Positions 4,803 to 39,538 of a stretch of DNA of 64,000 nucleotides are shown here, piece by piece (position 1 is the first letter of the stretch; every line of letters starts with the position of its first letter). The translations under genes were made by a program, and so were the position numbers. The stretch comes from a virus: positions 1-64,000 of IMG/VR virus record IMGVR_UViG_3300037264_001145; one strand, 5' to 3'. The notes beneath the pieces are model-generated. The model had not been told where the DNA came from. It saw only the letters and a program-made list of their open reading frames with translations, and did no database searches.

Positions 4803-5077
4803 CAAAAATTTTAAGAACACTAGAATTAGATAACGCCATAAGTGCCGTAGTAAATGAAATATCTGACGAGAATCTCAACCCAGGTCTTGTTAATTATACG
4901 ATATCTACCATTCTCGGAAGATTATTGTATAACCAAGACCTTAGTTATAGGAACATAAATCAATTGATTGGTGTTCTAGAGTGTGTTAAAATGGAATTAT
5001 ATCGTCGAATAGCTATTCCGTACGAGGATAAGATGATTGAGAGAAATGGGGACGTGTTTCCAGGGGCTATATTATGA
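4790..5077 (+). CDS. Conserved phage protein (DUF6899-like)
   Basis: MPY...G.VNYTI...IGVLECVKMELYRR..PYEDKMI.RNGDV pattern, recognised from memory. Confidence 0.6.
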   Translation: MPYVTKILRTLELDNAISAVVNEISDENLNPGLVNYTISTILGRLLYNQDLSYRNINQLIGVLECVKMELYRRIAIPYEDKMIERNGDVFPGAIL

Positions 5078-5313
5078 AGCCTTTTGATGTTCTCTCTATA
5101 TGTCCTAAGTGTGAATGCAAAGATGTGAACACTATGTATTTCGAAGGGGCAACATGGATATCCCTGTACGATAAGCTGAGGACATATTATGGGAAACAGA
5201 TATTTGAAGAACATCTAAAAAGACGTTGCACAAGGTGTCGTTTTTCTTGGCCCGAAAGTACCGCCCAAGTTAAAGTTGATAACAGCGGCAGGTCAGAAAA
5301 CTATATAGGATAG
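5074..5313 (+). CDS. Zn-ribbon protein
   Basis: CPKC...H...CTRC. Confidence 0.55.
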   Translation: MKPFDVLSICPKCECKDVNTMYFEGATWISLYDKLRTYYGKQIFEEHLKRRCTRCRFSWPESTAQVKVDNSGRSENYIG

Positions 5314-22159: not shown

Positions 22160-23188
22160 ATGAAAGCAAAAGATAAAATTCAAAGACCAAGCGACGAAAT
22201 GCTCGCATTACTAAAACGAACCGCTTCTAGCAATAAGGCTGAAGCTGATGTTGCTATGCAGGCTTTAGCAGCCGCTCTTCAAATCCCTCTTCGTGAGGGT
22301 CTATTGAACGGCGATATTCTTGATAACATCTTTTCTGTCGAGCCACTAGATCCAGGCGCTACAGCAGAGTATCCACTAGATTTGTATCAGCAACACAATG
22401 ATGGACAGTACACAGCTTATGTAATTCCAAGTGAAGGGGCTATTCCTCAACGCACGGTCGTTAGCGATAGCGTCACTGTCAACACATATAAAGTTGGTAA
22501 CTCGATTGATTGGCAACTTGATTATGCTCGACAAGCACGATGGAATGTAGTTGCACGAGCTATGGAAGTTCTGCAAGGTGGGTTTATTCGTAAGTTTAAT
22601 ACCGATGGTTGGAGTGCTCTGATTTCGGCTGCGGCTGGAAGAACAGACTATTTGGGTGGCGCTCCGATGGTATTTGATAGCGGTGCTGCTGTAGGCCAGT
22701 TCACCAAACGCCTAGTAAGTTTGATGAAAACCACAATGGCTCGTTTAGCTGGTGGAAATAGTTCTTCACCAAATCGCGGACGATTAACCGATATTTATAT
22801 CAGCGAAGAAGCTCTCGAAGATATTCGTGAGTGGGATCTCGACGATATAGATGATGTTACACGACGAGAAATTTTCCAAGCGGGCGACAGTGGCCCATTG
22901 GCGAAAATCTATGGCGTTAATCTTCATCCTTTGTTCGAGCTTGGTGTTGGCCAGGAATTCCAAGTTTACGCTGATAGTATTGGCGTAGTTATGGGCACCA
23001 GTGACGAAGAAATTGTTGTAGGTCTCGACCTCAGCAAGAACGATTCGTTCGTAATGCCAGTCAAGGAACCAATCACTGTGTTCGATGATCCATTCCTGCA
23101 CCGTAGAGGAAAAGCGGGCGTATATGCGTGGACTAATATTGGCTTTGGAGTACTCGATCCGCGCAGGGTGATTTTGGGCAGCCTGTAG
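22160..23188 (+). CDS. Major capsid protein (HK97-like)
   Basis: 342 aa, head-module position, followed by a strong terminator; C-terminal G.Y.W..IGFGVLDPRRVILG. Confidence 0.85.
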   Translation: MKAKDKIQRPSDEMLALLKRTASSNKAEADVAMQALAAALQIPLREGLLNGDILDNIFSVEPLDPGATAEYPLDLYQQHNDGQYTAYVIPSEGAIPQRTVVSDSVTVNTYKVGNSIDWQLDYARQARWNVVARAMEVLQGGFIRKFNTDGWSALISAAAGRTDYLGGAPMVFDSGAAVGQFTKRLVSLMKTTMARLAGGNSSSPNRGRLTDIYISEEALEDIREWDLDDIDDVTRREIFQAGDSGPLAKIYGVNLHPLFELGVGQEFQVYADSIGVVMGTSDEEIVVGLDLSKNDSFVMPVKEPITVFDDPFLHRRGKAGVYAWTNIGFGVLDPRRVILGSL

Positions 23189-23353: not shown

Positions 23354-24328
23354 ATGGCTACATATTACGTAAGTGCGGCATCTGGAAGTGATACTGATGA
23401 TGGATCAACCGAAGCCTTGGCGTGGTTAACCATAGACCACGCCATGAACACAGTAGTAGCCGGTGATCACGTCTACATTAAAAGTGACGGCAATTATAAT
23501 GAAACTGCTACACTAGATACTGTTGGAACACTCGCGGCCCCCATTGTTTTTGAAGGATATGCTTCTGTCACAGGAGACAATGGTGTTGCTGTTATTGATG
23601 GGCAAGATACAAGAGCAAACTGTCTTGCTGATAGCGTTGGGTCAACAACAATTATGCATTATGTTTTCAAGAATCTTCGTTTAACACAAGCTACGGGTCG
23701 TGGGGCGTTACTAGCAAACAGGATACATTTCTATAGATGTAAATTTGATAATAACGGAACTCACGGAGCAGATCTTGGAAATGCATGGTTCATTCAATGC
23801 GAATTTTCCGATAACGCAAATGATGGGGCTAATAATCTTAATACTGGTACTGTTCATTTTTATGCTGGTTGTCGTTTTTATAGAAACGTAAATAGTGGAT
23901 TCACACTGTCTACTGGTCATGCGATTTTGTTTGGCTGTGAATTTTTTAGCAATGGTAGTAACGGTGTTGTATTGGGTTCAGCAACTTCCATGTTTGTTGT
24001 AAATTGTACCTTTGATGGTGATAGTAAGGATAGTATCATCTGTCTTCAAACCACAACAAGTAATGGTCCAATATTATGTTTAAATAATGTTATTTACGAT
24101 GGGATTACAGGAATACAGAACCAAACTGCCCAGGGTGTTGAAAATTACATGTCTTTTAATAATTTAATAAATTCCAATACAACAGATTATACAAACGCAA
24201 GTACTCTTGAGGGTGAAATTACGTCGGCTCCAGGGTTTTATAACGAAGGCGTTAACGATTATAGACCGGGGGATGGGTCTGCATTGTCTGGTGCGGGATT
24301 TGACGCCAATAAAATAGAGGGATTTTAA
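23354..24328 (+). CDS. Right-handed beta-helix (pectin lyase-like) virion protein, copy A
   Basis: YYVSAASGSD.DDG N-terminus; repeated C.F..N ladder; 324 aa. Confidence 0.75.
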   Translation: MATYYVSAASGSDTDDGSTEALAWLTIDHAMNTVVAGDHVYIKSDGNYNETATLDTVGTLAAPIVFEGYASVTGDNGVAVIDGQDTRANCLADSVGSTTIMHYVFKNLRLTQATGRGALLANRIHFYRCKFDNNGTHGADLGNAWFIQCEFSDNANDGANNLNTGTVHFYAGCRFYRNVNSGFTLSTGHAILFGCEFFSNGSNGVVLGSATSMFVVNCTFDGDSKDSIICLQTTTSNGPILCLNNVIYDGITGIQNQTAQGVENYMSFNNLINSNTTDYTNASTLEGEITSAPGFYNEGVNDYRPGDGSALSGAGFDANKIEGF

Positions 24329-24447
24329 ATGTCTATATATTACGTAAGTGCGGCATCTGGAAGTGATACTGATGATGGATCAACCGAAGCCTTGGCGTGG
24401 TTAACCATAGACCACGCCATGAACACAGTAGTAGCCGGTGATCACGT
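23362..24447. repeat. 111-bp perfect direct repeat (23362-23472 and 24337-24447)
   Basis: Identical 5' ends of copies A and B at a 975-bp offset; also a 28-bp identity at 24291-24318 and 25266-25293. Confidence 0.9.
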
Positions 24448-25303
24448 TTATGTTAAAAATGATGGTAATTATAATGAACTTGCAACAATTGACACGACTG
24501 GAACAGTGGCAGCCCCAATTGTTTTCGAAGGATACGCTTCTGTAACAGGAGATAATGGTGTTGCTACTATTCATGGACAATCTTCAAGAGCCAATGGTGT
24601 TACTACTACTCTTACGGCAGGAACAAATACTAATTATGTTTTCAAAAATATTCGCATTACCGGACACACAGGAACAGGATTTTTAGCCGCGACCGACAAC
24701 TTACAGTTTATTCGCTGTAAGTTTGATACTAATGGTTCAAGTGGATGTAGTTGTCGCTCTTCTACACATATTCAATGTGAATATTCTAACAACACATTAG
24801 ATGGCTCTATAAGCACTGGATCATCAACATTATACTATGCTGGTTGCCGTTTCTATCGCAACGGAAGACATGGAGTAAATCAAGCAACTGGCAATTTATA
24901 TCTCTTTGCTTGTGAATTTTTTAGCAATGTGACAAATAATATTCTTTTTGCTAACGGGACTTTGTTGACTGTTATCAACTGCACTATTGATGGAGACGGT
25001 AATGATTCTGACGCCGGAATAGCAACAACGACAGGAAATGGTTTTCAACTATTAATAAACAACGTAATCTATGATTGTGTAACAGGAATTAGTAATGCTG
25101 TTGCGCAAGGGGTTGAAAACTACGCATCTATACACAACTTAGTAAACGCAAATGGAACTCCGTACACCAATGCAAGTACTCTTGAAGGAGAGATCACGTC
25201 GGCACCAGAATTTCATGATGAAGCCAACAATGATTATCGACCTGGGTTTAGTTCTCCGCTACTTAGTGCGGGATTTGACGCCAATAAAATAGAAGGGTTT
25301 TAA
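24329..25303 (+). CDS. Right-handed beta-helix virion protein, copy B
   Basis: Tandem paralog of copy A, also 324 aa. Confidence 0.75.
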   Translation: MSIYYVSAASGSDTDDGSTEALAWLTIDHAMNTVVAGDHVYVKNDGNYNELATIDTTGTVAAPIVFEGYASVTGDNGVATIHGQSSRANGVTTTLTAGTNTNYVFKNIRITGHTGTGFLAATDNLQFIRCKFDTNGSSGCSCRSSTHIQCEYSNNTLDGSISTGSSTLYYAGCRFYRNGRHGVNQATGNLYLFACEFFSNVTNNILFANGTLLTVINCTIDGDGNDSDAGIATTTGNGFQLLINNVIYDCVTGISNAVAQGVENYASIHNLVNANGTPYTNASTLEGEITSAPEFHDEANNDYRPGFSSPLLSAGFDANKIEGF

Positions 25304-25306
25304 CTT

Positions 25307-27373
25307 ATGTCGATTGATATTGGCGCTCTTCAGCTTTATCACATAGACATAGGCGCACTTCAGGGTGAAACCATACCAATTGGTGAAATTACAGATACCA
25401 TAGATTTATTTGCTCATGGACACACATCCGTAGATGATACTATAACCCTTTTTATTGAAGGATTTACTACAGATGAGGTTCTAACTCTATTTATCTCTGG
25501 ATACAGAGAAGGCACTCGATTATATTTACCTTCTAGTTCTTCGGCACCTTCAATTTATCCTGCCATAAGCAATACGTGGGATTTATCAACGCCTGGGGGT
25601 ATTACTTGTCCTGGTAATACTTATGGTATACGCAAATGTCATACAATAAAAAACAATAGTGCTATAACACCCATAAGAACGACTATAGAGTGTTATGATG
25701 AGGATTCTGATTTAGATCTTATAGCATTTCAATACGTATCTCATCCTTTAACTCCTGGACAAACGATTTATGGTGGACCACCACAAGCTCCTGATTTTAG
25801 ATTAAATAATTTTACAATAGTTTACCAGGGGAAAGAAGATTATAGCCTCAATAGTCTGGTAACTAGTTATATAGCTCGGATTATAGGTCGTGACGGAGAA
25901 GTTCGCAAAATTCTTTTCGATCACGCAAGACGGGGGCCAGAATTCCCTGTAGGATATTTTAGAAGCTGTTATTTTGGCAGGGCAATATTGCCCGGAAACT
26001 ATGTAACTGTACTTGGCGATTGTATCGTTATAGAAATTGGCGTAGCTGGTAATCCAGTAGTTGGTTTTGGTGGTACTTATGATGGATATATAAGGATAGG
26101 CGATCCTGAAGGATGGGATTTGTCAGACGATGGTAATGAAACAGAACCTCTTGCTCCATGGGCCGAGTTGTCTGCTACGTTAGAATTTGATGGACCTGGT
26201 GTTGTAAATGCGGACTGTGATTTATTTATACATGGTCGTACAACTATCAACGATTCGTTAGATCTTATCCTTACTTATCCAAGCTTTCATATTATAGCGT
26301 TAGATTTGTTCCTTAAAGCCCCCGAACCGATAAACGATTCTATTAATTTGTTTACACATAATTTTGAACAGATTACATTTTCCAGCGATCTGTTTATACA
26401 TGGCTACGAACAAATTACAGATTCCGAAGACTTATTTATATGGGGTTGTGCTTCAAAGAACAGGTCTTTCACCATCACCCTTACCTATCCTAGCTTTCAT
26501 ATTATAGCGTTAGATTTGTTCCTTCATGGTTATCAACAAATTACAGCAGATAGCGACCTATTTATATATGGTCATAAATTTAATACTAGTGATATGGATT
26601 TATTCATTTGTGGCCATCAAGATAAAACGACAAATATTGATCTGATAATTTCTGGAAAAGATTCAAACAACCAAGATCTAAACTTGTTCATTAACGGTCA
26701 CGAAGTTGATGTTAATAGTATAGATTTATTTATACATGGACCAGAACAAATTACGGACTCTAGTAATTTATTTATACATGGTTACACCACAATAAACGAT
26801 TCGTTTACTCTCACCTTAACCTATCCCAGCTTCCATATTATACCATTAGACTTGTTCCTTCATGGCTATCAACAAATTACAGTAAATAATGACTTGTTTA
26901 TATACGGCCTCGAACAAATTTCTGATTCTAGCGATTTATTTATACGTGGTCCGGAATCGGCAAATATATCTGTAAATCTTTTTATTAGTGGACCTAGTTC
27001 TGGAGATGATAATTTTGGTCAGAAAATAGAGATGTTATACTTGAAGGGAGATTACTATCCTCAACTAATGGGGAGGTTTACTACCGCCGTAATTTCTGTC
27101 ACAATAGAAGTATGGGAAGTTGGAGAGGGGGTCAATACTCCGATCACAACTTTATTGGATACCGATTGTTACAGCATAGGAAACACTGGAAGATGGGGAT
27201 GGTCAACAAGACACTTTAGGGAATTTTATAGCAAAGTAAATCATTTTGTATTTAGAATGACTGGGGATAATGCTGAAGAATTTCTTGGGGAATTTATTAT
27301 TACGACCGGAAGATCAGAAAGCCACAGGACAGGGAAAGTCAACAAGAACTTGAACTATCAAATAGACGACTAA
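25307..27373 (+). CDS. DLFIxG-repeat fibre-like protein with an inserted globular domain and C-terminal anchor-like domain
   Basis: About 20 copies of a ~14-aa repeat; TYPSFHII x3; C-terminal GRFTT...WGWST domain. Confidence 0.7.
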   Translation: MSIDIGALQLYHIDIGALQGETIPIGEITDTIDLFAHGHTSVDDTITLFIEGFTTDEVLTLFISGYREGTRLYLPSSSSAPSIYPAISNTWDLSTPGGITCPGNTYGIRKCHTIKNNSAITPIRTTIECYDEDSDLDLIAFQYVSHPLTPGQTIYGGPPQAPDFRLNNFTIVYQGKEDYSLNSLVTSYIARIIGRDGEVRKILFDHARRGPEFPVGYFRSCYFGRAILPGNYVTVLGDCIVIEIGVAGNPVVGFGGTYDGYIRIGDPEGWDLSDDGNETEPLAPWAELSATLEFDGPGVVNADCDLFIHGRTTINDSLDLILTYPSFHIIALDLFLKAPEPINDSINLFTHNFEQITFSSDLFIHGYEQITDSEDLFIWGCASKNRSFTITLTYPSFHIIALDLFLHGYQQITADSDLFIYGHKFNTSDMDLFICGHQDKTTNIDLIISGKDSNNQDLNLFINGHEVDVNSIDLFIHGPEQITDSSNLFIHGYTTINDSFTLTLTYPSFHIIPLDLFLHGYQQITVNNDLFIYGLEQISDSSDLFIRGPESANISVNLFISGPSSGDDNFGQKIEMLYLKGDYYPQLMGRFTTAVISVTIEVWEVGEGVNTPITTLLDTDCYSIGNTGRWGWSTRHFREFYSKVNHFVFRMTGDNAEEFLGEFIITTGRSESHRTGKVNKNLNYQIDD

Positions 27374-27406: not shown

Positions 27407-27790
27407 ATGAAATACGAAAACACAGAATTGGTACGTCTTTATGTTGACCAGAAGAAAAGTTGTCACGAAATAGCGCTGCTCGACGGAAGAAGCGAGAGTA
27501 CAATATACAAGATACTGGTTTTAAATAAAGTTGCACTTAGAAATAAATCGGAGGCCAACAAAATATTCGCCGACCTAGTTCTGATAACACTTTACAACCT
27601 CGGCTTGTCCTTTAAACAGATGAGTAGATTATTGGGGATACACCCAACAACGATTTCAAAAAGATTCGACATCCTGCACTTCCCAGTTCGGTCTAGCCAA
27701 GTAGCTAAATCAATAGGATATTCTAATGCGGAATTTCAAAAATATTATTGTAACAACAGATTCATTGATTTATTAAAGGAAATTGTATAA
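27407..27790 (+). CDS. Tandem-HTH DNA-binding protein
   Basis: SCHEIALLDGRSESTIYKIL and SFKQMSRLLGIHPTTISKRF; own TTGTGTATAAAT motif at 27376. Confidence 0.7.
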   Translation: MKYENTELVRLYVDQKKSCHEIALLDGRSESTIYKILVLNKVALRNKSEANKIFADLVLITLYNLGLSFKQMSRLLGIHPTTISKRFDILHFPVRSSQVAKSIGYSNAEFQKYYCNNRFIDLLKEIV

Positions 27791-29055
27791 TGGCGATCAC
27801 ATGGTACGTCGATAAAATTAGTGGGTCTGGTAATGGCGGATCTTCCGAGGGGTCGCCAAAAGCAAGTGGAACTGGTGCCGCGACTGATGAGACTACTATC
27901 ATTGACCTGAGCGTTGATGCGCCCGATCTTTCTGCGGTTGTTATTGGTGACACAATTAGACTTAACGGAAGAACAGACGGGATTCGTAGTACAGATATTT
28001 TTCGGATAACAGCCAAAGATGACGGTCTTGATACTGTCACAGTTACACCAACTCCAGGATCGACTACCAGTGGAGTAACGTGGGCTATAGGCGGTGCATT
28101 TAACACTATAAGCAAATCTATGTTGGTCTGTACGTCCACGGATACGATATGGATTAAAGATTCAGCTAATTATCAAGAAACTATTACGATTAGCGTTTTG
28201 AGCGCAAACACAAACATAGTTGTCGAGGGTTATACAAGTGTAACTGGCGACGGCGGTATGGTTACGGTTGATGGCCAAGGTGTTAGAAGTTATGGGTTGA
28301 ATGAAACAGTAGGAGCACCTGGCGTTTATTTTTATTATGTTTTTAAAAATATTGAATTTATAAACCATACAGTTCATGGAGCATATATTTCTAATGGACT
28401 TATGATAACATTTAAAAACTGTTGGTTCAATGATAATGCAGAAGATGGTTTTGATGCTGATCTTTCTCATTATTTAAGTTTTGAAAGGTGTCGGTTTAAC
28501 GATAATGGAGAAGATGGTTTCTGTAGCGGAGCAGACTCGGCTACTCAACGGCATTGTTTAGTTGGTTGTGAGTTGATGAGAAATGTTAGTCGTGGTTGTT
28601 TTGTTTCAAATGCTATTATCTCTAACTGTGTCTTTTTCGATAATGGCTACGCGCAAATAGAAGTGTGGTCTTCTATAAATATCTTTATAAACCACTGTAC
28701 AGTAGACGGTAAAGACAAAGATAACATTGGAGTTACTTTTGTTGACAGAAACTATATATCTCCTGTTATAATAAATACTATAATTACTAGATGTGCGAGT
28801 GGATTTGTTGCCGCAAGTGGCATTGGTGAAATGATGACTTCTAGAAACAACTTATTCTATAACAATACAGAACATTATATTGGTGGTGCTTTTACGTCAG
28901 AAGGCGAGGTTTTAAGTAATCCATTATTTATTAATCAATTTATACAAGACTATAGATTACAGACTTCTTCTCCTGCTATTGGCGCTGGTTACGATGCGTC
29001 TAGTATTGTTGGTATTAGTAGTCAATGTGATATTGGTGCTTATCAAAGCGAGTAA
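27790..29055 (+). CDS. Beta-helix virion protein, copy C
   Basis: WYVDKISGSGNGG; C.FNDN ladder; DYRLQ..SPAIGAG...DIGAYQ. Confidence 0.7.
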   Translation: MAITWYVDKISGSGNGGSSEGSPKASGTGAATDETTIIDLSVDAPDLSAVVIGDTIRLNGRTDGIRSTDIFRITAKDDGLDTVTVTPTPGSTTSGVTWAIGGAFNTISKSMLVCTSTDTIWIKDSANYQETITISVLSANTNIVVEGYTSVTGDGGMVTVDGQGVRSYGLNETVGAPGVYFYYVFKNIEFINHTVHGAYISNGLMITFKNCWFNDNAEDGFDADLSHYLSFERCRFNDNGEDGFCSGADSATQRHCLVGCELMRNVSRGCFVSNAIISNCVFFDNGYAQIEVWSSINIFINHCTVDGKDKDNIGVTFVDRNYISPVIINTIITRCASGFVAASGIGEMMTSRNNLFYNNTEHYIGGAFTSEGEVLSNPLFINQFIQDYRLQTSSPAIGAGYDASSIVGISSQCDIGAYQSE

Positions 29056-29065
29056 GGAATAGTCA

Positions 29066-30721
29066 ATGTCAACATATTACGTAAGTGCTGCTTCGGGAGA
29101 TAATGGGAACAGCGGATTAACAGAAGCTCTTGCGTGGGCTACTATTGATCATGGAATGAACACTGTCGCTCCTGGAGATCATGTTTATGTTAAAAGTGAC
29201 GGTAATTACAATGAATTAGTAACTCTAGACACCGTTGGGTCTGGTGCGAATTACATAGTTTTTGAAGGATACTCAGGCACAATAGGAGATAACGAAAGAG
29301 CAACCATAGATGCTCAAAACACAAGAGCTAATTGTCTTGTAGATTCTATAGCCAATGGCCTTCAGGCTTTTTATGTCTTCAAAAATCTTAGATTTACGGA
29401 TGCTACTGGCAATGGAATTGTTGTAGAATGTTCTTCTTTAAAATTCAAAAATTGTAGAGTTGATAGTTGTGCTTCTTGGGGCCACTATACTTACGGTGCC
29501 GTTCTTGAAGATTGTGAATTTGACAATAACGGAGAAGGATCTTTTTATACTAATAATCATACATATCTTGGTTGTAAATTCAGCAATAATGGTAATGGCG
29601 ATGCAAATGGTTCGATAGACACTATTTTCTATGGATGTACCTTTTTTAGTGCAGTAGAATATGGTATATATGTTCATACTACCGCAAATTTTACATACGT
29701 ATTTAATTGTACTTTTGATGGAGATAGCAAAGATACGGGGATTGCCTTTGATTGTGAATTTGGCGACAAACAACTCGTTTCGGTAAATAATCTCTTTTAC
29801 GATAATGGAGTTGCCTTAAGACACCCCATTGGTCAACGATGCGTCTCTATGAACAACTTATTTCATAATAACACAAGCAAATATCAATTGGGGGCAGACA
29901 CATACACAGATGAAATAGAGGGTGATCCAGCTTTTATTGACGAAGGAGCAAATGATTATAGATTAGAAGCGGGTTCTTCTGGTATATTTAACGGTTTTGA
30001 TTTTTCAAAAATAAAAGGCTTTTTCCCTGGCGGGATGGATATCGGTGCCTTTCAGGTTCTTGGATCGGGATCTCCGTCACAATGGATAGAAACATCCGGC
30101 GACAGAAACTTAAGTATGGGTGGACACTTAGATGTTTCTGACCAGATAGACTATTCTATACATGGTTATGCTCCAAAAAATAAGTCGTTAAATCTTATTT
30201 TTACTTATCCTAGCTTCCATAATTACCCTACATTAGACTTTTTCCTTAAAGCTCCAGAACCCGTAAATGATTCCATTGATGTATTTGTTCACGGCCACGC
30301 CCTTAATAGTAATACTATTGGTTTGTATACTTCCGCCCAGTTTGTTCAAACAATAGTAAGTCTATACATTAAGGGAGAGGCGGTATCTCCCGAAGAAGAT
30401 ACGTTTGGTATATCTCTAGATCAATTAATAAAAAATGCAGACTTCAATCCCCAAATCATTGGTAGGTTTACCACTGAACCATCGAGCGTGACCATAGAGT
30501 TGTGGGATTTGATGAATAATAATTCCCCACTTTCTTTGTCGAGCTATGATTGTTATGAAATAGGGGATACTGATAGATGGGCGTGGTCTACTATTAATTT
30601 ACCTCCACTAACAAAAAGGGTAAATCAATTTGTTTATAGGATGACGGCGAATACGGCGGAAGTGTTCGAGGGAGATTTTATCGTGAAAATAAAAAAAATT
30701 GGTAAAGAAAGGGGCAGATAA
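29066..30721 (+). CDS. Beta-helix protein, copy D, fused to a short repeat stalk and anchor-like domain
   Basis: Beta-helix, then DIGAFQ, a few DLFI-like repeats and a GRFTT...WAWST domain. Confidence 0.75.
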   Translation: MSTYYVSAASGDNGNSGLTEALAWATIDHGMNTVAPGDHVYVKSDGNYNELVTLDTVGSGANYIVFEGYSGTIGDNERATIDAQNTRANCLVDSIANGLQAFYVFKNLRFTDATGNGIVVECSSLKFKNCRVDSCASWGHYTYGAVLEDCEFDNNGEGSFYTNNHTYLGCKFSNNGNGDANGSIDTIFYGCTFFSAVEYGIYVHTTANFTYVFNCTFDGDSKDTGIAFDCEFGDKQLVSVNNLFYDNGVALRHPIGQRCVSMNNLFHNNTSKYQLGADTYTDEIEGDPAFIDEGANDYRLEAGSSGIFNGFDFSKIKGFFPGGMDIGAFQVLGSGSPSQWIETSGDRNLSMGGHLDVSDQIDYSIHGYAPKNKSLNLIFTYPSFHNYPTLDFFLKAPEPVNDSIDVFVHGHALNSNTIGLYTSAQFVQTIVSLYIKGEAVSPEEDTFGISLDQLIKNADFNPQIIGRFTTEPSSVTIELWDLMNNNSPLSLSSYDCYEIGDTDRWAWSTINLPPLTKRVNQFVYRMTANTAEVFEGDFIVKIKKIGKERGR

Positions 30722-30722
30722 T

Positions 30723-31058
30723 ATGGCACTACTAGAGTACGATTATTCATTAGACGATCCGATATCTTTAATCGGAGACTTTGTTACGGGAGAAACTGTT
30801 AACATAGAATTGTGGGTTGATGGTGTTGAGCAAGGTATATCTCCGAGTGGGTGTGATGAAATTAATGCAACTGGAAAATATTCTTGGTCAACCGGGAATA
30901 TTGTTGCGTTAACAGCAAGTAGGGTTCAATACCACTGGAGAATGACAGATAGTGGACTTAATACTGTAGAAGGAGATTTTGTTCTCAAGAGTGTAGAGGG
31001 CGATGACGGACAAATGCCTTCGTTGAACAATAAGGATTCGTATATTATTTCATTTTAA
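30723..31058 (+). CDS. Stand-alone anchor-like (possibly Ig-like) domain protein
   Basis: IGDFVTGETVNIELW...C.EI..TGKYSWST...WRMT...EGDF aligns with the C-termini of ORFs 25307 and 29066. Confidence 0.65.
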   Translation: MALLEYDYSLDDPISLIGDFVTGETVNIELWVDGVEQGISPSGCDEINATGKYSWSTGNIVALTASRVQYHWRMTDSGLNTVEGDFVLKSVEGDDGQMPSLNNKDSYIISF

Positions 31059-35498: not shown

Positions 35499-36218
35499 AT
35501 GGCAAATACAGAAATAAGTGATTTAACTGGGGTAACAGCGGTTGCCGGTACTAACGCGTTTCCCGTTAACGAGGTTGCGGGACCAACCACGAAAAAGGCT
35601 ACAGTAACTCAATTAACTGAGTTTTTAAATGAGACTCCAACTTTTACAGGTGTTCCTGCCGCTCCAACCGCTGCGGCAGATGTAAGCACTACTCAAATAG
35701 CTACTACCGCTTTTGTACAAACTAATGGACCTGTTAAAGTAAAATCTATAGCCAGCGATGCCACTGCTAATGCAACGACCGGCATGGTGAAAATAACGGG
35801 TATGGATGTGACCGTACCAGCAGGCACATATCAAATAGCATATTATATTATAGCACAAACTTCTGCCGCTACCACCTCTCTTAAATTTGCCGTGAACCAC
35901 ACCGGAGCATCGGAATCGGTTTTCTGTTATAATCTTTTCTTGTCCAATACTGGTGTTACGGCGGTATCTAATGCTATAGATCAAGAAAATAATGTTACAA
36001 CTGGGCTTATGTTTTCATTTGATGCAACTCGTATAAAGAATACTACACTTGGGCCGCAAGCAAATACTACCGACGCAACTGCGGATTTATTTTACATTAT
36101 CCGGGGGTTGATTTTATTAACGAACACCGGCACCTTAGAATTATACCACGGATCAGAGACGGCTGCAAGTACAACTGTTAAGGCTGGAACGTGCGTAATT
36201 ATAACTAAGGTGGGGTAA
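35499..36218 (+). CDS. Fibre-like structural protein, triplet copy 3
   Basis: MANTEISDL...PTFTGVPAAPTAAADVSTTQIAT. Confidence 0.65.
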   Translation: MANTEISDLTGVTAVAGTNAFPVNEVAGPTTKKATVTQLTEFLNETPTFTGVPAAPTAAADVSTTQIATTAFVQTNGPVKVKSIASDATANATTGMVKITGMDVTVPAGTYQIAYYIIAQTSAATTSLKFAVNHTGASESVFCYNLFLSNTGVTAVSNAIDQENNVTTGLMFSFDATRIKNTTLGPQANTTDATADLFYIIRGLILLTNTGTLELYHGSETAASTTVKAGTCVIITKVG

Positions 36219-39200
36219 TGGCTGACAGATATCTAATAGAGGGGAGTGCAGCAGACGGGTATCTGCTCGAAGACGGGACCGGAGTTTTACTTCTTGAACA
36301 ACAAGCAGTAGCTCACGAGAAAAGTCTTGGAGATACTATAACCCTGACCGATGCTAAAACCGCACTTGTCAGCATCTCTATTTCTACCGATGCTATTACA
36401 TTATCCGATGCCGAAGTTGCAACCGTAAGCGTCTCTCTTACTGATACAATTACATTATCCGACGCTGAAACCGCAATCGCAAGTGTTTCTCTTTCCGATA
36501 CAATCACATTATCTGATGCTGAAACCGCAACCGTAAGTGTTTCTCTAACCGATACAGTTACTCTCAGTGACGCACAGGAGATCGTATCTACAAAGACAGC
36601 GGACATAGATTTATTCATTAATGGTTACGACACAAAAACAACGGATATAGATTTATTTGTTCGTGGATACGAATTTTTTAATAACGATAATTTAGAATTG
36701 TTCGTACAAGGAAAAGAAACAAAAACCCAGAGCATAGATTTGTTTATCTATGGTTACGCGACTTTTACAATTGACACAGATTTGTTTATTCACGGATACG
36801 AATTTTTTAACAACGACAATTTAGAACTTTTTATACAAGGAAAAGATTCAAAAAATCAAAGTCTAAATCTTTTTATAAAAGGTGCTGATTCAAAGAACAG
36901 CGATATAGATCTTTTCATAGAAGGAAAAGATGCAAAATCCCAAGATTTAGATTTGTTCATTCATGGACACGAACCTTTTAATAACGATAACCTAGAATTA
37001 TTTATTCATGGTTACGAATCTTTTAACAACGATAATCTGGAACTGTTTATCTACGGACAAGAAGCAGAAACCAAGAGCTTGGATTTGTTTATCCAAGGAG
37101 ATGTGTCTTTCACGGCTGCTATAGATTTATTTGTTCGTGGACATGAATCTTTTAGTAACGACACCTTGGAACTCTATATCGGCGGGAAAGAGGCCGAGAC
37201 ACAAGATATAGACCTGTTCATTAACGGTCAGGCATCTTTCAATGATAGTTTAGAATTATTCATACATGGACAAGAAACAGAAACCCAAAGCATAGATTTG
37301 TTTATCTCTGGGATTATTGCTCAAACACCGTTTAATTATGATATTGACTTGTTCATTCGTGGTCATCAAACCAAAACAACAGACATTGATTTAGCGATTT
37401 TTGGAAAGAATACAGACAACCAAAGTCTGGACCTATTTATAGAAGGTTTTGATACTGACAGTAAAGAGTTAGATCTTTTTATACGTGGTTATGAATCTTT
37501 TAACAACAGCAATTTAGAACTCTTCATTGGCGGACAAGATACCAAAACACAAAGCCTAGATTTGTTTATTAATGGTTATGAATCTTTTAATTATGATCTT
37601 GACTTGTTCATTCATGGTAAAGATCCAGAAAACCAAAGTATAGACCTATTCATAAAAGGTTTTAATACCGACAACAGAGGGCTAGATCTTTTTATTAGTA
37701 GTTTTGAAGTTATTAATAACGACAACTTAGAACTCTATATTGGTGGAAAAGATAATAAAACACAAGACATAGATTTGTTCATTGGCGGTAAAGCAGCGGA
37801 ATCTATCTCCTTAGATTTGGCCATTAACGGTCACGTTAGTTTTAATGCTAGTTTACCCTTATTCATGAACGGTCAAGATGCAGAAAATCAAAGCTTAGAC
37901 TTGTTTATCGAAGGACATGATTCTAAAAATCAAAGCTTGGACTTGTTCATCAAGGGACTCGCTGCTAATACCAGTAGCTTAGATCTTTTCATTAATGGGC
38001 GTGACAACAATTCTGGCGATATTGATCTGTATATAGAAGGTAGTATAGCTAGTACACAAGCTATAGACCTTTTTGTAAGCGGTATAGGTTTTGAAAACCA
38101 AGATTTAACACTGTTCATAAGCAGTCTCAATATAACAACAAAATCTCTTAATCTTTTCATAAGTGGTCCGATCTACGCTAGTGGAGATTGCGAATTATTC
38201 ATACATGGACACGCTTCTCAAACACAGAGCATAGATTTGTTTGTTGGTGGTTACGAATCCGTTAACGAGAGTCTAGAGTTATTTATAAAAGGACAAGATT
38301 CTAAAAACAACGAGATAGATCTTTTCATAACAGGAAAAGATACAAAGTCCCAAGATATAGATTTATTTACACACGGAAAGAATTCAGAGACCAAAGATGT
38401 TGATCTATTCATTAATGGTTTCGATAATAAGACTCAAGATCTTGATCTATTTATCCATGGTAAAGATACTCAATCCGATCAAATAGATTTGGCCATCAAT
38501 GGTATAGCTGGACACAATCAATCTGTCGATCTGTTCGTACACGGAAAGAACACAGACAATCAATCTATAGATCTTGTCATTAATGGATACGCTACAGACA
38601 CCAGCGAAATAGATTTGTTCATATTTGGAATGGACTTAAATTCCATCTTTGATTCTATTGACTTGTTTATAAGCGGGCCAATCACTTTCAATAATAGTTG
38701 CGATTTATTCATAAAAGGAAGAGAAGACAACACTAATAATTGTGATCTTGTAATAAATGGACACAAAACAAATACTAACAATATAACCCTATTCATCAAT
38801 GGTTTTAACAACCAAACCGACAACGTTGATTTGTTTATAAGAGGCTTGCTATCAGAAGATAACGACATAGACATCTCCCTTGTGGGTCATGCTTCGCTCA
38901 ACGATAACATAGACCTGTTTATAAGAGGTTTTACAACCGGAGTAACATCGGTTTCTGGTGAACTTACACTGATAATGAAGGGGTCGTTTGTTCCAGTTGG
39001 AGTTTCTTGTCCAACACTAGACCCAAATACTTCTATTCAAATAGGCGACGATTTAATAGAAATTTATCAAGGTAGAATTGACTCTGTTATCAATCAACTT
39101 GGTAAAAATGTATTGTTAGAATTCGATCCAATTATTGAACCATGCACCAACTGTGTGTTTGACACCATGAACGGTAGATCAACGGGAATATATAGGGTTG

Positions 39201-39538
39201 GAGGCCCAATTCCATTTATCAGAGGACACAAATGCCCCTATTGTAAGGGTCGCGGCTTTTTAAAGAGAGGGGTAAATAGGTGTATAAAATGCTTAGTGAA
39301 GTGGAATCCGGGAGATGCACAGGATTACGGAATTAGTCTTTTAGACCCAGGGAGTGTTGTCAAATTAAAGGGGTTCTTGACAGACGGAGACGATATGGTT
39401 ATGTGTAAATCGGCTATTATTAATCACGATATATCCGATATTCTTAAGTTGAGAGTAGTATTAATAAAAGGTCCGATTATTATAGGTCTTAGAGAAAGTA
39501 GATATATGATAACTTTCTGGAAGTTGACGGATTCATAA
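36218..39538 (+). CDS. Long DLFIxG-repeat protein ending in a second copy of the neck-like domain
   Basis: LLEDG..LLLE N-terminus; about 5 x 18-aa SLxDTITLSDA repeats; about 55 x 14-aa repeats; C-terminal paralog of ORF 32868. Confidence 0.75.
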   Translation: MADRYLIEGSAADGYLLEDGTGVLLLEQQAVAHEKSLGDTITLTDAKTALVSISISTDAITLSDAEVATVSVSLTDTITLSDAETAIASVSLSDTITLSDAETATVSVSLTDTVTLSDAQEIVSTKTADIDLFINGYDTKTTDIDLFVRGYEFFNNDNLELFVQGKETKTQSIDLFIYGYATFTIDTDLFIHGYEFFNNDNLELFIQGKDSKNQSLNLFIKGADSKNSDIDLFIEGKDAKSQDLDLFIHGHEPFNNDNLELFIHGYESFNNDNLELFIYGQEAETKSLDLFIQGDVSFTAAIDLFVRGHESFSNDTLELYIGGKEAETQDIDLFINGQASFNDSLELFIHGQETETQSIDLFISGIIAQTPFNYDIDLFIRGHQTKTTDIDLAIFGKNTDNQSLDLFIEGFDTDSKELDLFIRGYESFNNSNLELFIGGQDTKTQSLDLFINGYESFNYDLDLFIHGKDPENQSIDLFIKGFNTDNRGLDLFISSFEVINNDNLELYIGGKDNKTQDIDLFIGGKAAESISLDLAINGHVSFNASLPLFMNGQDAENQSLDLFIEGHDSKNQSLDLFIKGLAANTSSLDLFINGRDNNSGDIDLYIEGSIASTQAIDLFVSGIGFENQDLTLFISSLNITTKSLNLFISGPIYASGDCELFIHGHASQTQSIDLFVGGYESVNESLELFIKGQDSKNNEIDLFITGKDTKSQDIDLFTHGKNSETKDVDLFINGFDNKTQDLDLFIHGKDTQSDQIDLAINGIAGHNQSVDLFVHGKNTDNQSIDLVINGYATDTSEIDLFIFGMDLNSIFDSIDLFISGPITFNNSCDLFIKGREDNTNNCDLVINGHKTNTNNITLFINGFNNQTDNVDLFIRGLLSEDNDIDISLVGHASLNDNIDLFIRGFTTGVTSVSGELTLIMKGSFVPVGVSCPTLDPNTSIQIGDDLIEIYQGRIDSVINQLGKNVLLEFDPIIEPCTNCVFDTMNGRSTGIYRVGGPIPFIRGHKCPYCKGRGFLKRGVNRCIKCLVKWNPGDAQDYGISLLDPGSVVKLKGFLTDGDDMVMCKSAIINHDISDILKLRVVLIKGPIIIGLRESRYMITFWKLTDS

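What the first reader, a model, noticed from the sequence alone, without database searches (positions are those of the whole stretch)
24329..27373. In-frame TAA splits a beta-helix head from its stalk exactly where a paralog is fused
Seen in sequence: ORF 24329 ends ...GGG TTT TAA, followed by CTT ATG TCG ATT GAT ATT in the same frame. Reading through gives KIEGF-*-LMSI-DIGALQ, which aligns without a gap to KIKGF-F-PGGM-DIGAFQ in the fused paralog 29066. ORFs 23354, 24329 and 25307 all share one frame. Inference: this is either stop read-through giving a ~1014-aa beta-helix/stalk/anchor fibre plus free parts, or a gene fission in which the duplicated IDIGALQ at the start of 25307 supplies the missing C-terminal strand and docks interchangeable beta-helix heads (A or B) non-covalently.
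Basis: partly seen in the sequence, partly recalled or inferred. Interest (0 to 1): 0.72.

Follow-up and report, generated by a model that had tools for sequence, protein, structure and literature searches.

The report
Split phage enzyme head with docking tag
In this uncultured phage, and in many others, a sugar-cutting-type "head" protein is encoded without its last short segment, and the next gene (a fibre stalk or small anchor) starts with two copies of that segment, which looks like a plug-in system for attaching exchangeable heads and not like stop-codon read-through.

Summary
Heads A (23354-24328) and B (24329-25303) and stalk C (25307-27373) share one frame. B ends GGG TTT TAA, followed by CTT ATG. 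Reading through aligns without a gap to the fused paralog at 29066.

The TAA is not an error and probably not recoded. It is the usual stop here (38 of 45 ORFs), there is no suppressor tRNA, and C has its own ATG and a GAAGGG Shine-Dalgarno-like site.

The comparative result is the main finding. In 21 of 22 distinct junctions from independent metagenomes, a head lacking the terminal DIGAxQ segment is followed at once by a gene starting with a tandem pair of that motif. This happened after 0 of 15 heads that carry the motif in cis (Fisher 2e-9). Frames at these junctions vary (11 in frame, 10 not), so a fusion product is not the conserved outcome.

An AlphaFold model of B joined to the start of C places motif 1 (pLDDT 84-87) within the range that aligns to the C-terminal part of pectate lyase Pel9A (Z 32).

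Best reading: a conserved gene split with non-covalent completion and docking of interchangeable PL9-like heads. Binding in trans and its stoichiometry are inferred, not shown. I found no description of this in the literature.

The parts
23354..24328 (+). Head A: a 324-aa right-handed beta-helix that ends ...FDANKIEGF + TAA and has no DIGAxQ segment.
   Evidence: Pfam PF13229 E 7e-10. 63% identical to B. The first 120 nt are 98% identical to B, while the core has diverged.
24329..25303 (+). Head B: a 324-aa PL9-like beta-helix that lacks the terminal segment. Its stop TAA is at 25301-25303.
   Evidence: AlphaFold model m9beb70adace0 has mean pLDDT 93. Pel9A 1ru4 matches at Z 32.2, rmsd 2.8 A over 317 residues.
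25292..25309 (+). Junction: a Shine-Dalgarno-like GAAGGG (25292-25297), TAA (25301-25303), the spacer CTT, then the ATG of the stalk gene (25307-25309).
   Evidence: The same layout (GA[AG]GG[ATG] TTT TAA NTT ATG) is found in L014, L015 and L016.
25313..25333 (+). Motif copy 1 (IDIGALQ, residues 3-9 of C). It is collinear with the single cis motif of the fused paralogs.
   Evidence: In the read-through model these residues (329-335) have pLDDT 84-87 and lie within the range aligned to the C-terminal part of Pel9A and of PL9 rhamnogalacturonan lyase.
25343..25363 (+). Motif copy 2 (IDIGALQ, residues 13-19 of C), 10 residues after copy 1.
   Evidence: A second copy is present in every partner gene examined. 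Its pLDDT is only about 58 in the model.
25307..27373 (+). Stalk protein C (688 aa). In order: the motif pair, three DLFxxG repeats, an insert domain at about residues 70-350, more DLFIxG-type repeats, and a C-terminal domain of about 115 aa shared with 29066 and 30699.
   Evidence: No Pfam or PHROG match. The Atlas gave only weak beta-sandwich or CBM-like leads.
27790..29055 (+). Third head (421 aa), with an N-terminal extension and its own cis motif at the very end (...SSQCDIGAYQSE*).
   Evidence: Pfam PF13229 E 1.5e-10. There is a weak, sub-threshold match of residues 385-420 to NCBIfam NF041518 choice_anch_Q.
29066..30721 (+). Fused paralog (551 aa): head, then one cis motif (MDIGAFQ, D codon at 30038), stalk repeats, and the C-terminal domain.
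30699..31058 (+). Small ORF that encodes only a copy of the C-terminal domain. The match covers 30759-30992.
   Evidence: E 2e-8 to residues 461-542 of the fused paralog.

Best explanation
A, B and C are three separately translated genes of a conserved two-part module. The heads are monomer-type, pectate-lyase-family-9-like beta-helices. They are encoded without the short C-terminal segment (DIGAxQ) that closes the fold in relatives. The gene that follows starts with a tandem pair of exactly that segment. In this window that gene is a repeat-rich fibre stalk with a C-terminal domain. Elsewhere it is a stalk, a 35-59-aa mini-adaptor or a peptide with a hydrophobic tail.

Inferred mechanism: after translation, a motif copy inserts into the open C-terminal cap of a head, which both completes it and tethers it non-covalently to the stalk. 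Because A and B keep near-identical ends but divergent cores, either can plug into the same stalk, so one fibre can carry different glycan-binding or glycan-cutting specificities. The in-frame layout in this window is most simply a relic of how the fission arose (a stop codon plus a nearby Met). It is not a recoding device.

Shown: the split, its conservation, the strict co-occurrence with the motif pair, the variable frames, and structural compatibility in a model. Inferred: binding in trans, the stoichiometry (two heads per chain, or one head per pair), enzymatic activity, and where on the virion the fibre sits.
For: 1. Of about 180 cluster representatives of the head family, about 57-60 stop 15-21 residues after the DY(R/T)(P/L) cap strand and have no motif. 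About 94-110 carry exactly one motif in cis, and none carries two.
2. Forward test: every motif-less head examined is followed by a gene that starts with two or more motif copies. These are the window, L009, L011, L014, L015, L016 (two junctions), L024, L038/L043, L039, L041, L042, L047 and L048. In L019 one extra gene intervenes.
3. Reverse test: a DNA pattern for the motif pair gave 8 new hits in IMG/VR. In 7 of them the pair lies at the extreme N-terminus of an ORF that directly follows an ORF ending in a motif-less beta-helix-cap-like tail.
4. Association: 21/22 against 0/15, Fisher 1.7e-9.
5. The two copies co-vary within each lineage: DIGPLQ twice in L014, IGAY twice in L038, AWNxLDIG twice in L041 and L042.
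6. With about 100 cis homologues in the alignment, AlphaFold places motif 1 at pLDDT 84-87. Pel9A aligns over model residues 1-337, and its aligned range runs to residue 425.
7. On a tree of 154 heads the cis/split state changes at least 22 times, with at least 11 changes forced by well-supported branches. Sister pairs include P0017 (cis) with P0021 (split). This is as expected for a modular exchange point.
8. C has its own ATG and an SD-like site, and all partners start with ATG or GTG.
Against: No experiment or multimer prediction shows binding in trans, because the only model is a covalent read-through chain. DSSP assigns no beta-strand to motif 1, so 'missing strand' is loose wording. Motif 2 is poorly placed (pLDDT about 58). 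A first model with a shallow alignment left the whole junction disordered (pLDDT 31-39). Gene counts do not settle the stoichiometry: one head gene with one pair (L009, L011, L016), two head genes with one pair (window, L015), three heads with two pairs (L047). In-frame junctions are slightly over-represented (11/21, p = 0.056; 8/18, p = 0.22 after collapsing close kin), so occasional read-through in this clade cannot be excluded.
Confidence: 0.65

Rival explanations
1. Programmed stop-codon read-through (or another recoding event) at TAA 25301-25303 makes a covalent B-C fusion of about 1014 aa, and perhaps an A-B-C fusion, as a functional minor product. This would resemble the Q-beta A1 protein.
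For: A, B and C share one frame, and the read-through aligns without a gap to the fused paralog. Four close relatives keep TAA + 3 nt + ATG. In-frame junctions are slightly enriched, 11/21, p = 0.056.
Against: Ten of 21 junctions are out of frame (TAATG overlaps, or spacers of 1, 4 or 8 nt), and no shared slippery site is present. L019 has a 203-aa gene between head and stalk. The stop is TAA, which from general knowledge is the tightest bacterial terminator and which ends 38 of 45 ORFs here. The record has no suppressor tRNA. Every partner has its own start codon. The enrichment disappears after collapsing close kin (p = 0.22).
Confidence: 0.06
2. This is a plain gene fission with no interaction. 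The heads are free, soluble enzymes released at lysis, and the motif pair on the stalk has another role, for example stalk oligomerisation.
For: Trans binding is untested. DSSP shows no strand for the motif and motif 2 is low-confidence. Motif-less heads are predicted to fold confidently up to about residue 320.
Against: The strict co-occurrence is hard to explain without a functional link between the two genes: a pair only after motif-less heads, 21/22 against 0/15. The same holds for the positive reverse test, the co-variation of the two copies across very divergent lineages, and the translational coupling (TAATG, TAA|ATG).
Confidence: 0.15
3. Sub-model A of the docking idea: each motif copy completes one head, so each stalk chain carries two heads (A+B, A+A or B+B).
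For: One motif is enough in cis, since all cis heads have exactly one. The two copies stay near-identical to each other within each lineage, as expected if both fit the same kind of site. The window and L015 have two head genes and two copies.
Against: Partners with a single copy were never seen, and cis heads with an extra copy were never seen. L047 has three heads but four copies arranged as two pairs. The copies are only 10 residues apart, which is sterically tight.
Confidence: 0.35
4. Sub-model B of the docking idea: the pair is the docking unit for one head, acting as a hairpin or through avidity. A and B then compete for the same stalk.
For: The motif always occurs as a pair in trans and single in cis. 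L047 has two pairs after two head polypeptides. Most loci have one head gene per pair.
Against: In the model, motif 2 does not pack confidently on the head (pLDDT about 58). Two non-equivalent hairpin strands would not be expected to stay identical.
Confidence: 0.3
5. The TAA is a sequencing or assembly error in a single fused gene.
For: None beyond the in-frame layout.
Against: Homologous stops at the same position occur in many independent assemblies, and 57 or more cluster representatives have the same truncated length.
Confidence: 0.01

Closest known systems
Pectate lyase Pel9A and PL9 rhamnogalacturonan lyase (PDB 1ru4, 5olq); Pfam PF22842 Pel9A-like_beta_helix
   Same: The same right-handed beta-helix fold. 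Z is 32.2 (rmsd 2.8 A over 317 residues) for 1ru4 and 29.7 for 5olq. The aligned model range (to residue 335-337) includes the stalk's motif 1, and the aligned range of the chain reaches the C-terminal part of the solved chain. PF22842 is precomputed on several family members.
   Different: In the solved enzymes the C-terminal segment belongs to the same chain. Here it is encoded at the start of the next gene, in two copies. Catalytic residues were not checked.
NCBIfam NF041518 'choice-of-anchor Q' C-terminal module of bacterial beta-helix proteins
   Same: The cap sequence (F.DE..DY.L..SPA.DAG ... CDIGAYE/Q) resembles this 58-position model. It gives weak hits on the cis heads P0002, P0085 and P0068. 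From my own knowledge of how the 'choice-of-anchor' families are named, that module sits just before variable anchoring signals, much as the motif here sits at the boundary to variable stalks and anchors.
   Different: All hits are below the curated cut-off (14-20 bits against 25). In the phage the module is split between two genes and its last part is duplicated.
Donor-strand complementation in chaperone-usher pili (general knowledge)
   Same: In concept, an incomplete fold is completed by an N-terminal extension of the next subunit, which also links the subunits non-covalently.
   Different: The fold is unrelated (an Ig-like pilin against a beta-helix cap). No chaperone is evident, a tandem pair is used in place of a single strand, and the mechanism is not demonstrated here.
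Branched or adaptor-based tailspike attachment in phages (G7C gp63.1/gp66, CBA120 TSP1-4, K1-5/SP6 adaptors, Klebsiella phage anchor-branch systems; general knowledge)
   Same: Several exchangeable beta-helix enzymes are attached non-covalently to one virion structure, and the receptor-binding modules are shuffled as units.
   Different: Those systems dock through folded N-terminal domains of trimeric spikes. Here the beta-helix starts at residue 2-3, and the interface is its C-terminal cap plus a short peptide tag from the partner.
Programmed read-through extensions of virion proteins (Q-beta A1; general knowledge)
   Same: An in-frame stop lies between a structural domain and an extension.
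   Different: The stop is TAA, the downstream ORF has its own start and an SD-like site, and the frame is not conserved among relatives.

Membership tests
PL9-like right-handed beta-helix (Pel9A-like) | Beta-helix fold superposable on Pel9A | tested here: met
   VIA-align Z 32.2, rmsd 2.8 A, 317 residues aligned to 1ru4. Foldseek E 4.5e-9.
PL9-like right-handed beta-helix (Pel9A-like) | Profile match (PF13229 or PF22842) above threshold | tested here: inconclusive
   A matches PF13229 at E 7e-10, but B has no Pfam hit. 16 of 35 relatives hit PF13229. PF22842 is precomputed on P0007, P0040 and P0090.
PL9-like right-handed beta-helix (Pel9A-like) | Ca2+-binding aspartates and the catalytic lysine of PL9 lyases | not tested
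   No residue-level superposition was available, because model coordinates are not exported.
choice-of-anchor Q domain (NF041518) | Score at or above the curated cut-off of 25 bits | tested here: not met
   P0002 19.8 bits, P0085 17.0, P0068 14.3. The B read-through and P0001 gave no hit.
Programmed stop-codon read-through | Downstream part conserved in frame and dependent on the upstream start | tested here: not met
   11 junctions are in frame and 10 are not. All partners have their own ATG or GTG. One locus has an intervening gene.
Programmed stop-codon read-through | Leaky stop context or a suppressor tRNA | tested here: not met
   TAA ends 38 of 45 ORFs in the window. The only tRNA in the record is tRNA-Thr.
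Programmed ribosomal frameshift | Conserved slippery site at out-of-frame junctions | tested here: not met
   Junction sequences differ and share no heptamer. L009 alone has a T-run, TTTTTAATG.
Donor-strand / fragment complementation | An acceptor fold lacking a terminal element that relatives have in cis | tested here: met
   Alignment A2 and the classification of about 180 heads.
Donor-strand / fragment complementation | The donor segment occupies the vacant site | tested here: inconclusive
   This was modelled only as a covalent chain. Motif 1 has pLDDT 84-87 within the range aligned to the C-terminal part of Pel9A, and the shallow-alignment model failed. No two-chain prediction or experiment was done.
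Adaptor/branch tailspike systems (gp10-like, XD, G7C-type) | A folded N-terminal docking domain on the spike | tested here: not met
   In A and B the beta-helix begins at residue 3 and there is no N-terminal domain. P0002 does have an extension of about 90 aa, which was not analysed.

The most novel reading that the evidence does not exclude
The tandem DIGAxQ pair is a general phage 'docking tag' that works by fragment complementation. When fused to any anchor (long fibre stalks, 35-59-aa mini-adaptors, peptides with hydrophobic tails), it captures motif-less PL9-like beta-helix enzymes by completing their C-terminal cap. This would give plug-and-play exchange of host-glycan specificities. It would also explain why heads switch between fused and split states at least 11-22 times in the family tree.
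Probability: 0.5. Interest if true: 0.8.

Novelty: new variant of a known kind. Interest (0 to 1): 0.68.

Why it matters
Phage host range depends largely on how receptor-binding and glycan-degrading modules are attached and exchanged. Every attachment system I know of uses folded N-terminal domains. A short, portable peptide tag that completes and tethers an enzyme head would be a new attachment principle. It would explain rapid cassette shuffling in a large family of uncultured phages: 546 cluster representatives at E < 1e-30, about a third of the examined ones split. It could also provide a compact natural tag-and-catcher pair for engineering phage specificity or for protein display. Finally, it shows that an in-frame stop between homologous parts need not mean recoding.

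Tried and rejected
- tblastn of the major capsid protein, stalk C and head B against 50,697 GenBank phage records found nothing, so no cultured relative is available.
- The search for related loci with stalk C alone found no relative.
- The first AlphaFold run, with a 35-sequence alignment, left residues 320-350 disordered. It was superseded by the 148-sequence run.
- A profile search of PDB sequences matched only the N-terminal cap of GH136 lacto-N-biosidases.
- Literature searches for the motif, for 'choice-of-anchor Q', for strand complementation plus tailspike, and for head fibres plus beta-helix returned nothing relevant.
- ESM Atlas searches of the stalk's C-terminal and insert domains gave only weak beta-sandwich or CBM-like leads, so the virion attachment site remains unknown.
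- The motif-pair pattern in 185,579 prokaryote genomes gave one low-complexity chance hit and one phage-like MAG contig, so no host could be assigned.
- I did not model an A-B-C triple read-through. The one-residue A-B link would make docking of motif 2 on A geometrically impossible in a single chain.
Full report
**What is there.** The window is the first 64 kb of a 119.6-kb IMG/VR phage record, estimated about 71% complete. The structural module runs as follows:
- terminase, 15657
- portal, 17815
- an XM1-gp53-like minor capsid protein, 21667
- major capsid protein, 22160-23188

Directly after the capsid gene come head A (23354-24328), head B (24329-25303), stalk C (25307-27373), a small HTH gene, a third head with its own C-terminal motif (27790-29055), a fused head-stalk paralog (29066-30721) and a bare copy of the stalk's C-terminal domain (30699-31058).

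The read-through aligns column for column with KIKGFFPGGMDIGAFQ of the fused paralog.

**Is the stop real and is it read through?** TAA ends 38 of the 45 long ORFs in the window. The whole record has one tRNA (Thr) and no suppressor. C has its own ATG preceded by GAAGGG. Homologues of B found among 5.8 billion proteins very often end at the same place...IEGF*...AGLNG*...AGFDGGS*. The stop is therefore a conserved gene boundary and not an error.

**The comparative pattern.**
- I fetched the genomic context of many relatives. Every head that lacks the DIGAxQ segment is followed by a gene that begins with a tandem pair of it.
- Examples are MNIDIGALQLSSIDIGALQ (L009), MGMEIGAVQVPGMDIGGVQ (L011), MSMDIGPLQVSYIDIGPLQ (L014), MPMDIGALQDRHIDIGALQ (L015), MDIGAIQRNGMDIGAIQ (L024), MANSIGAYAQDGLNEIGAYEY (L038), MGYRDIGALQQANGADIGALE (L039) and MAWNTLDIGSQQHGSAWNALDIGAEQ (L041).
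- The spacing between copies is 10 residues in the window's clade and 10-14 residues overall.
- The one apparent exception (L019) has a 203-aa gene inserted, and the stalk with the pair follows it.
- Heads that carry the motif in cis have exactly one copy, and the gene after them never starts with the motif.
- The association is 21/22 against 0/15, Fisher 1.7e-9.
- The reverse test also holds. A degenerate DNA pattern for the pair gave 10 hits in 2.9 million viral contigs. Of the 8 new ones, 7 lie at the very start of an ORF directly preceded by an ORF whose tail resembles a motif-less beta-helix cap. Some of these tails differ from the window's head family.
- In prokaryote genomes the pattern gave only one phage-like MAG contig and one low-complexity hit.

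**Frames.** Junctions are TAA+3 nt, TAA+6, TAA|ATG, TAATG overlaps, or TAA+1, +4 or +8 nt. Eleven are in frame and ten are not (p = 0.056; 8 of 18, p = 0.22, after collapsing the window's close kin). No shared slippery sequence exists. A covalent fusion therefore cannot be the conserved product. The in-frame layout here is best read as a trace of fission by a stop codon next to a usable Met.

**Structure.**
- A read-through construct (B, Q at the stop, L, C residues 1-75) folded with 35 sequences gave a confident beta-helix but a disordered junction.
- A shorter construct (C residues 1-40), folded with 148 sequences including about 100 cis-motif homologues, scored mean pLDDT 93.
- In that model the junction and motif 1 scored 84-87 and motif 2 about 58. 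DSSP assigned no strand to the motif.
- The model superposes on pectate lyase Pel9A (Z 32.2, rmsd 2.8 A, 317 residues; model 1-337 onto chain 39-425) and on PL9 rhamnogalacturonan lyase (model 1-335). Motif 1 therefore falls within the range aligned to the C-terminal part of the solved single-chain enzymes.
- The cis heads weakly resemble the bacterial 'choice-of-anchor Q' cap (NF041518), below its cut-off.

**Evolution.**
- The head family is large: 546 cluster representatives at E < 1e-30. About a third of the roughly 180 examined are split.
- On a tree built from head residues only, the cis/split state changes at least 22 times, with at least 11 changes forced by well-supported branches. 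It includes close sister pairs of opposite state.
- A and B are 98% identical over their first 120 nt and about 75% identical at the protein C-terminus, but only 35-40% identical in the core. Their ends are conserved and their binding surfaces have diverged.
- Within each partner the two motif copies co-vary (P/P, Y/Y, an extended AWNxLDIG unit), which shows that both copies are under the same constraint.

**Mechanism proposed.** The three genes are translated separately. A motif copy from the stalk's N-terminus then completes the head's C-terminal cap and tethers it. A and B are interchangeable cargo.

The stoichiometry is open:
- One motif is enough in cis, which favours two heads per chain.
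- The motif always comes as a pair in trans. L047 has a single head, then two heads fused in one 648-aa protein, then a partner with four copies arranged as two pairs. This favours the pair as the unit.

Enzymatic activity, the oligomeric state of the stalk and the virion attachment site (the genes sit next to the capsid genes) were not determined.

**Novelty.** I found no paper on this motif or on this mode of attachment, and no cultured relative. It works like donor-strand or fragment complementation applied to modular phage fibres. It is not a member of the known adaptor-domain tailspike systems.

Noticed in passing
window 27407-27790; also L009 8939-9319, L015 5242-5640, L016 1793-2167, L011 5620-5997, L052: A small HTH protein of about 125 aa (HTH_38/HTH_23, with weak PHROG hits to HNH endonuclease and DNA-binding proteins) is conserved between or beside the head/stalk cassettes in many relatives. 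It could be a regulator or a remnant of a mobile or homing element that promotes cassette exchange.
   Followed up: partly
window 23354-23473 vs 24329-24448: The first 120 nt of heads A and B are 98% identical, against 62-79% further in. This suggests recent gene conversion or recombination at the 5' ends of the tandem cassettes.
   Followed up: yes
L047 355-3459: One motif-less head (328 aa) is followed by a 648-aa protein made of two motif-less heads fused head to tail. The next gene starts with four motif copies arranged as two pairs (MPRINSIGAYDKGGSNEIGAYG...NDIGAYDTAGNDIGAWQ), and then the contig ends.
   Followed up: partly
L038 924-1103; L055 (partner ORF of 56 aa): Two mini-partners of 56-59 aa consist of the motif pair, a short linker and a hydrophobic, transmembrane-like C-terminal tail. 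The tag may therefore also tether heads to a membrane.
   Followed up: no
L036 about 4987-5095: The head ends at TGA. An overlapping TTG-started 35-aa mini-ORF encodes NIGAYLTTADIGAYQ, a glycine run, then PKQTLLGIG. That last stretch resembles the short tails of cis heads. This is either a tiny adaptor or a frameshift in the assembly.
   Followed up: no
L019 1227-2647: A 203-aa gene is inserted between head and stalk. In the stalk ORF the motif pair lies at residues 38-55, after an LLENxSxxDGELLENG-type leader, so the pair need not be at the extreme N-terminus.
   Followed up: partly
window 30699-31058 and 36218-39538: There is a stand-alone copy of the stalk's C-terminal domain. The same DLFIxG-type stalk repeats recur in a 1106-aa virion protein further downstream.
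   Followed up: partly
cis heads P0010, P0012, P0017, P0029, P0032, P0073 and others: Cis heads end in short conserved tails after the motif (...NVFKLRIGV, ...LLMPNKRGGKQ, ...IVMAG). These may be a second, different docking peptide.
   Followed up: no
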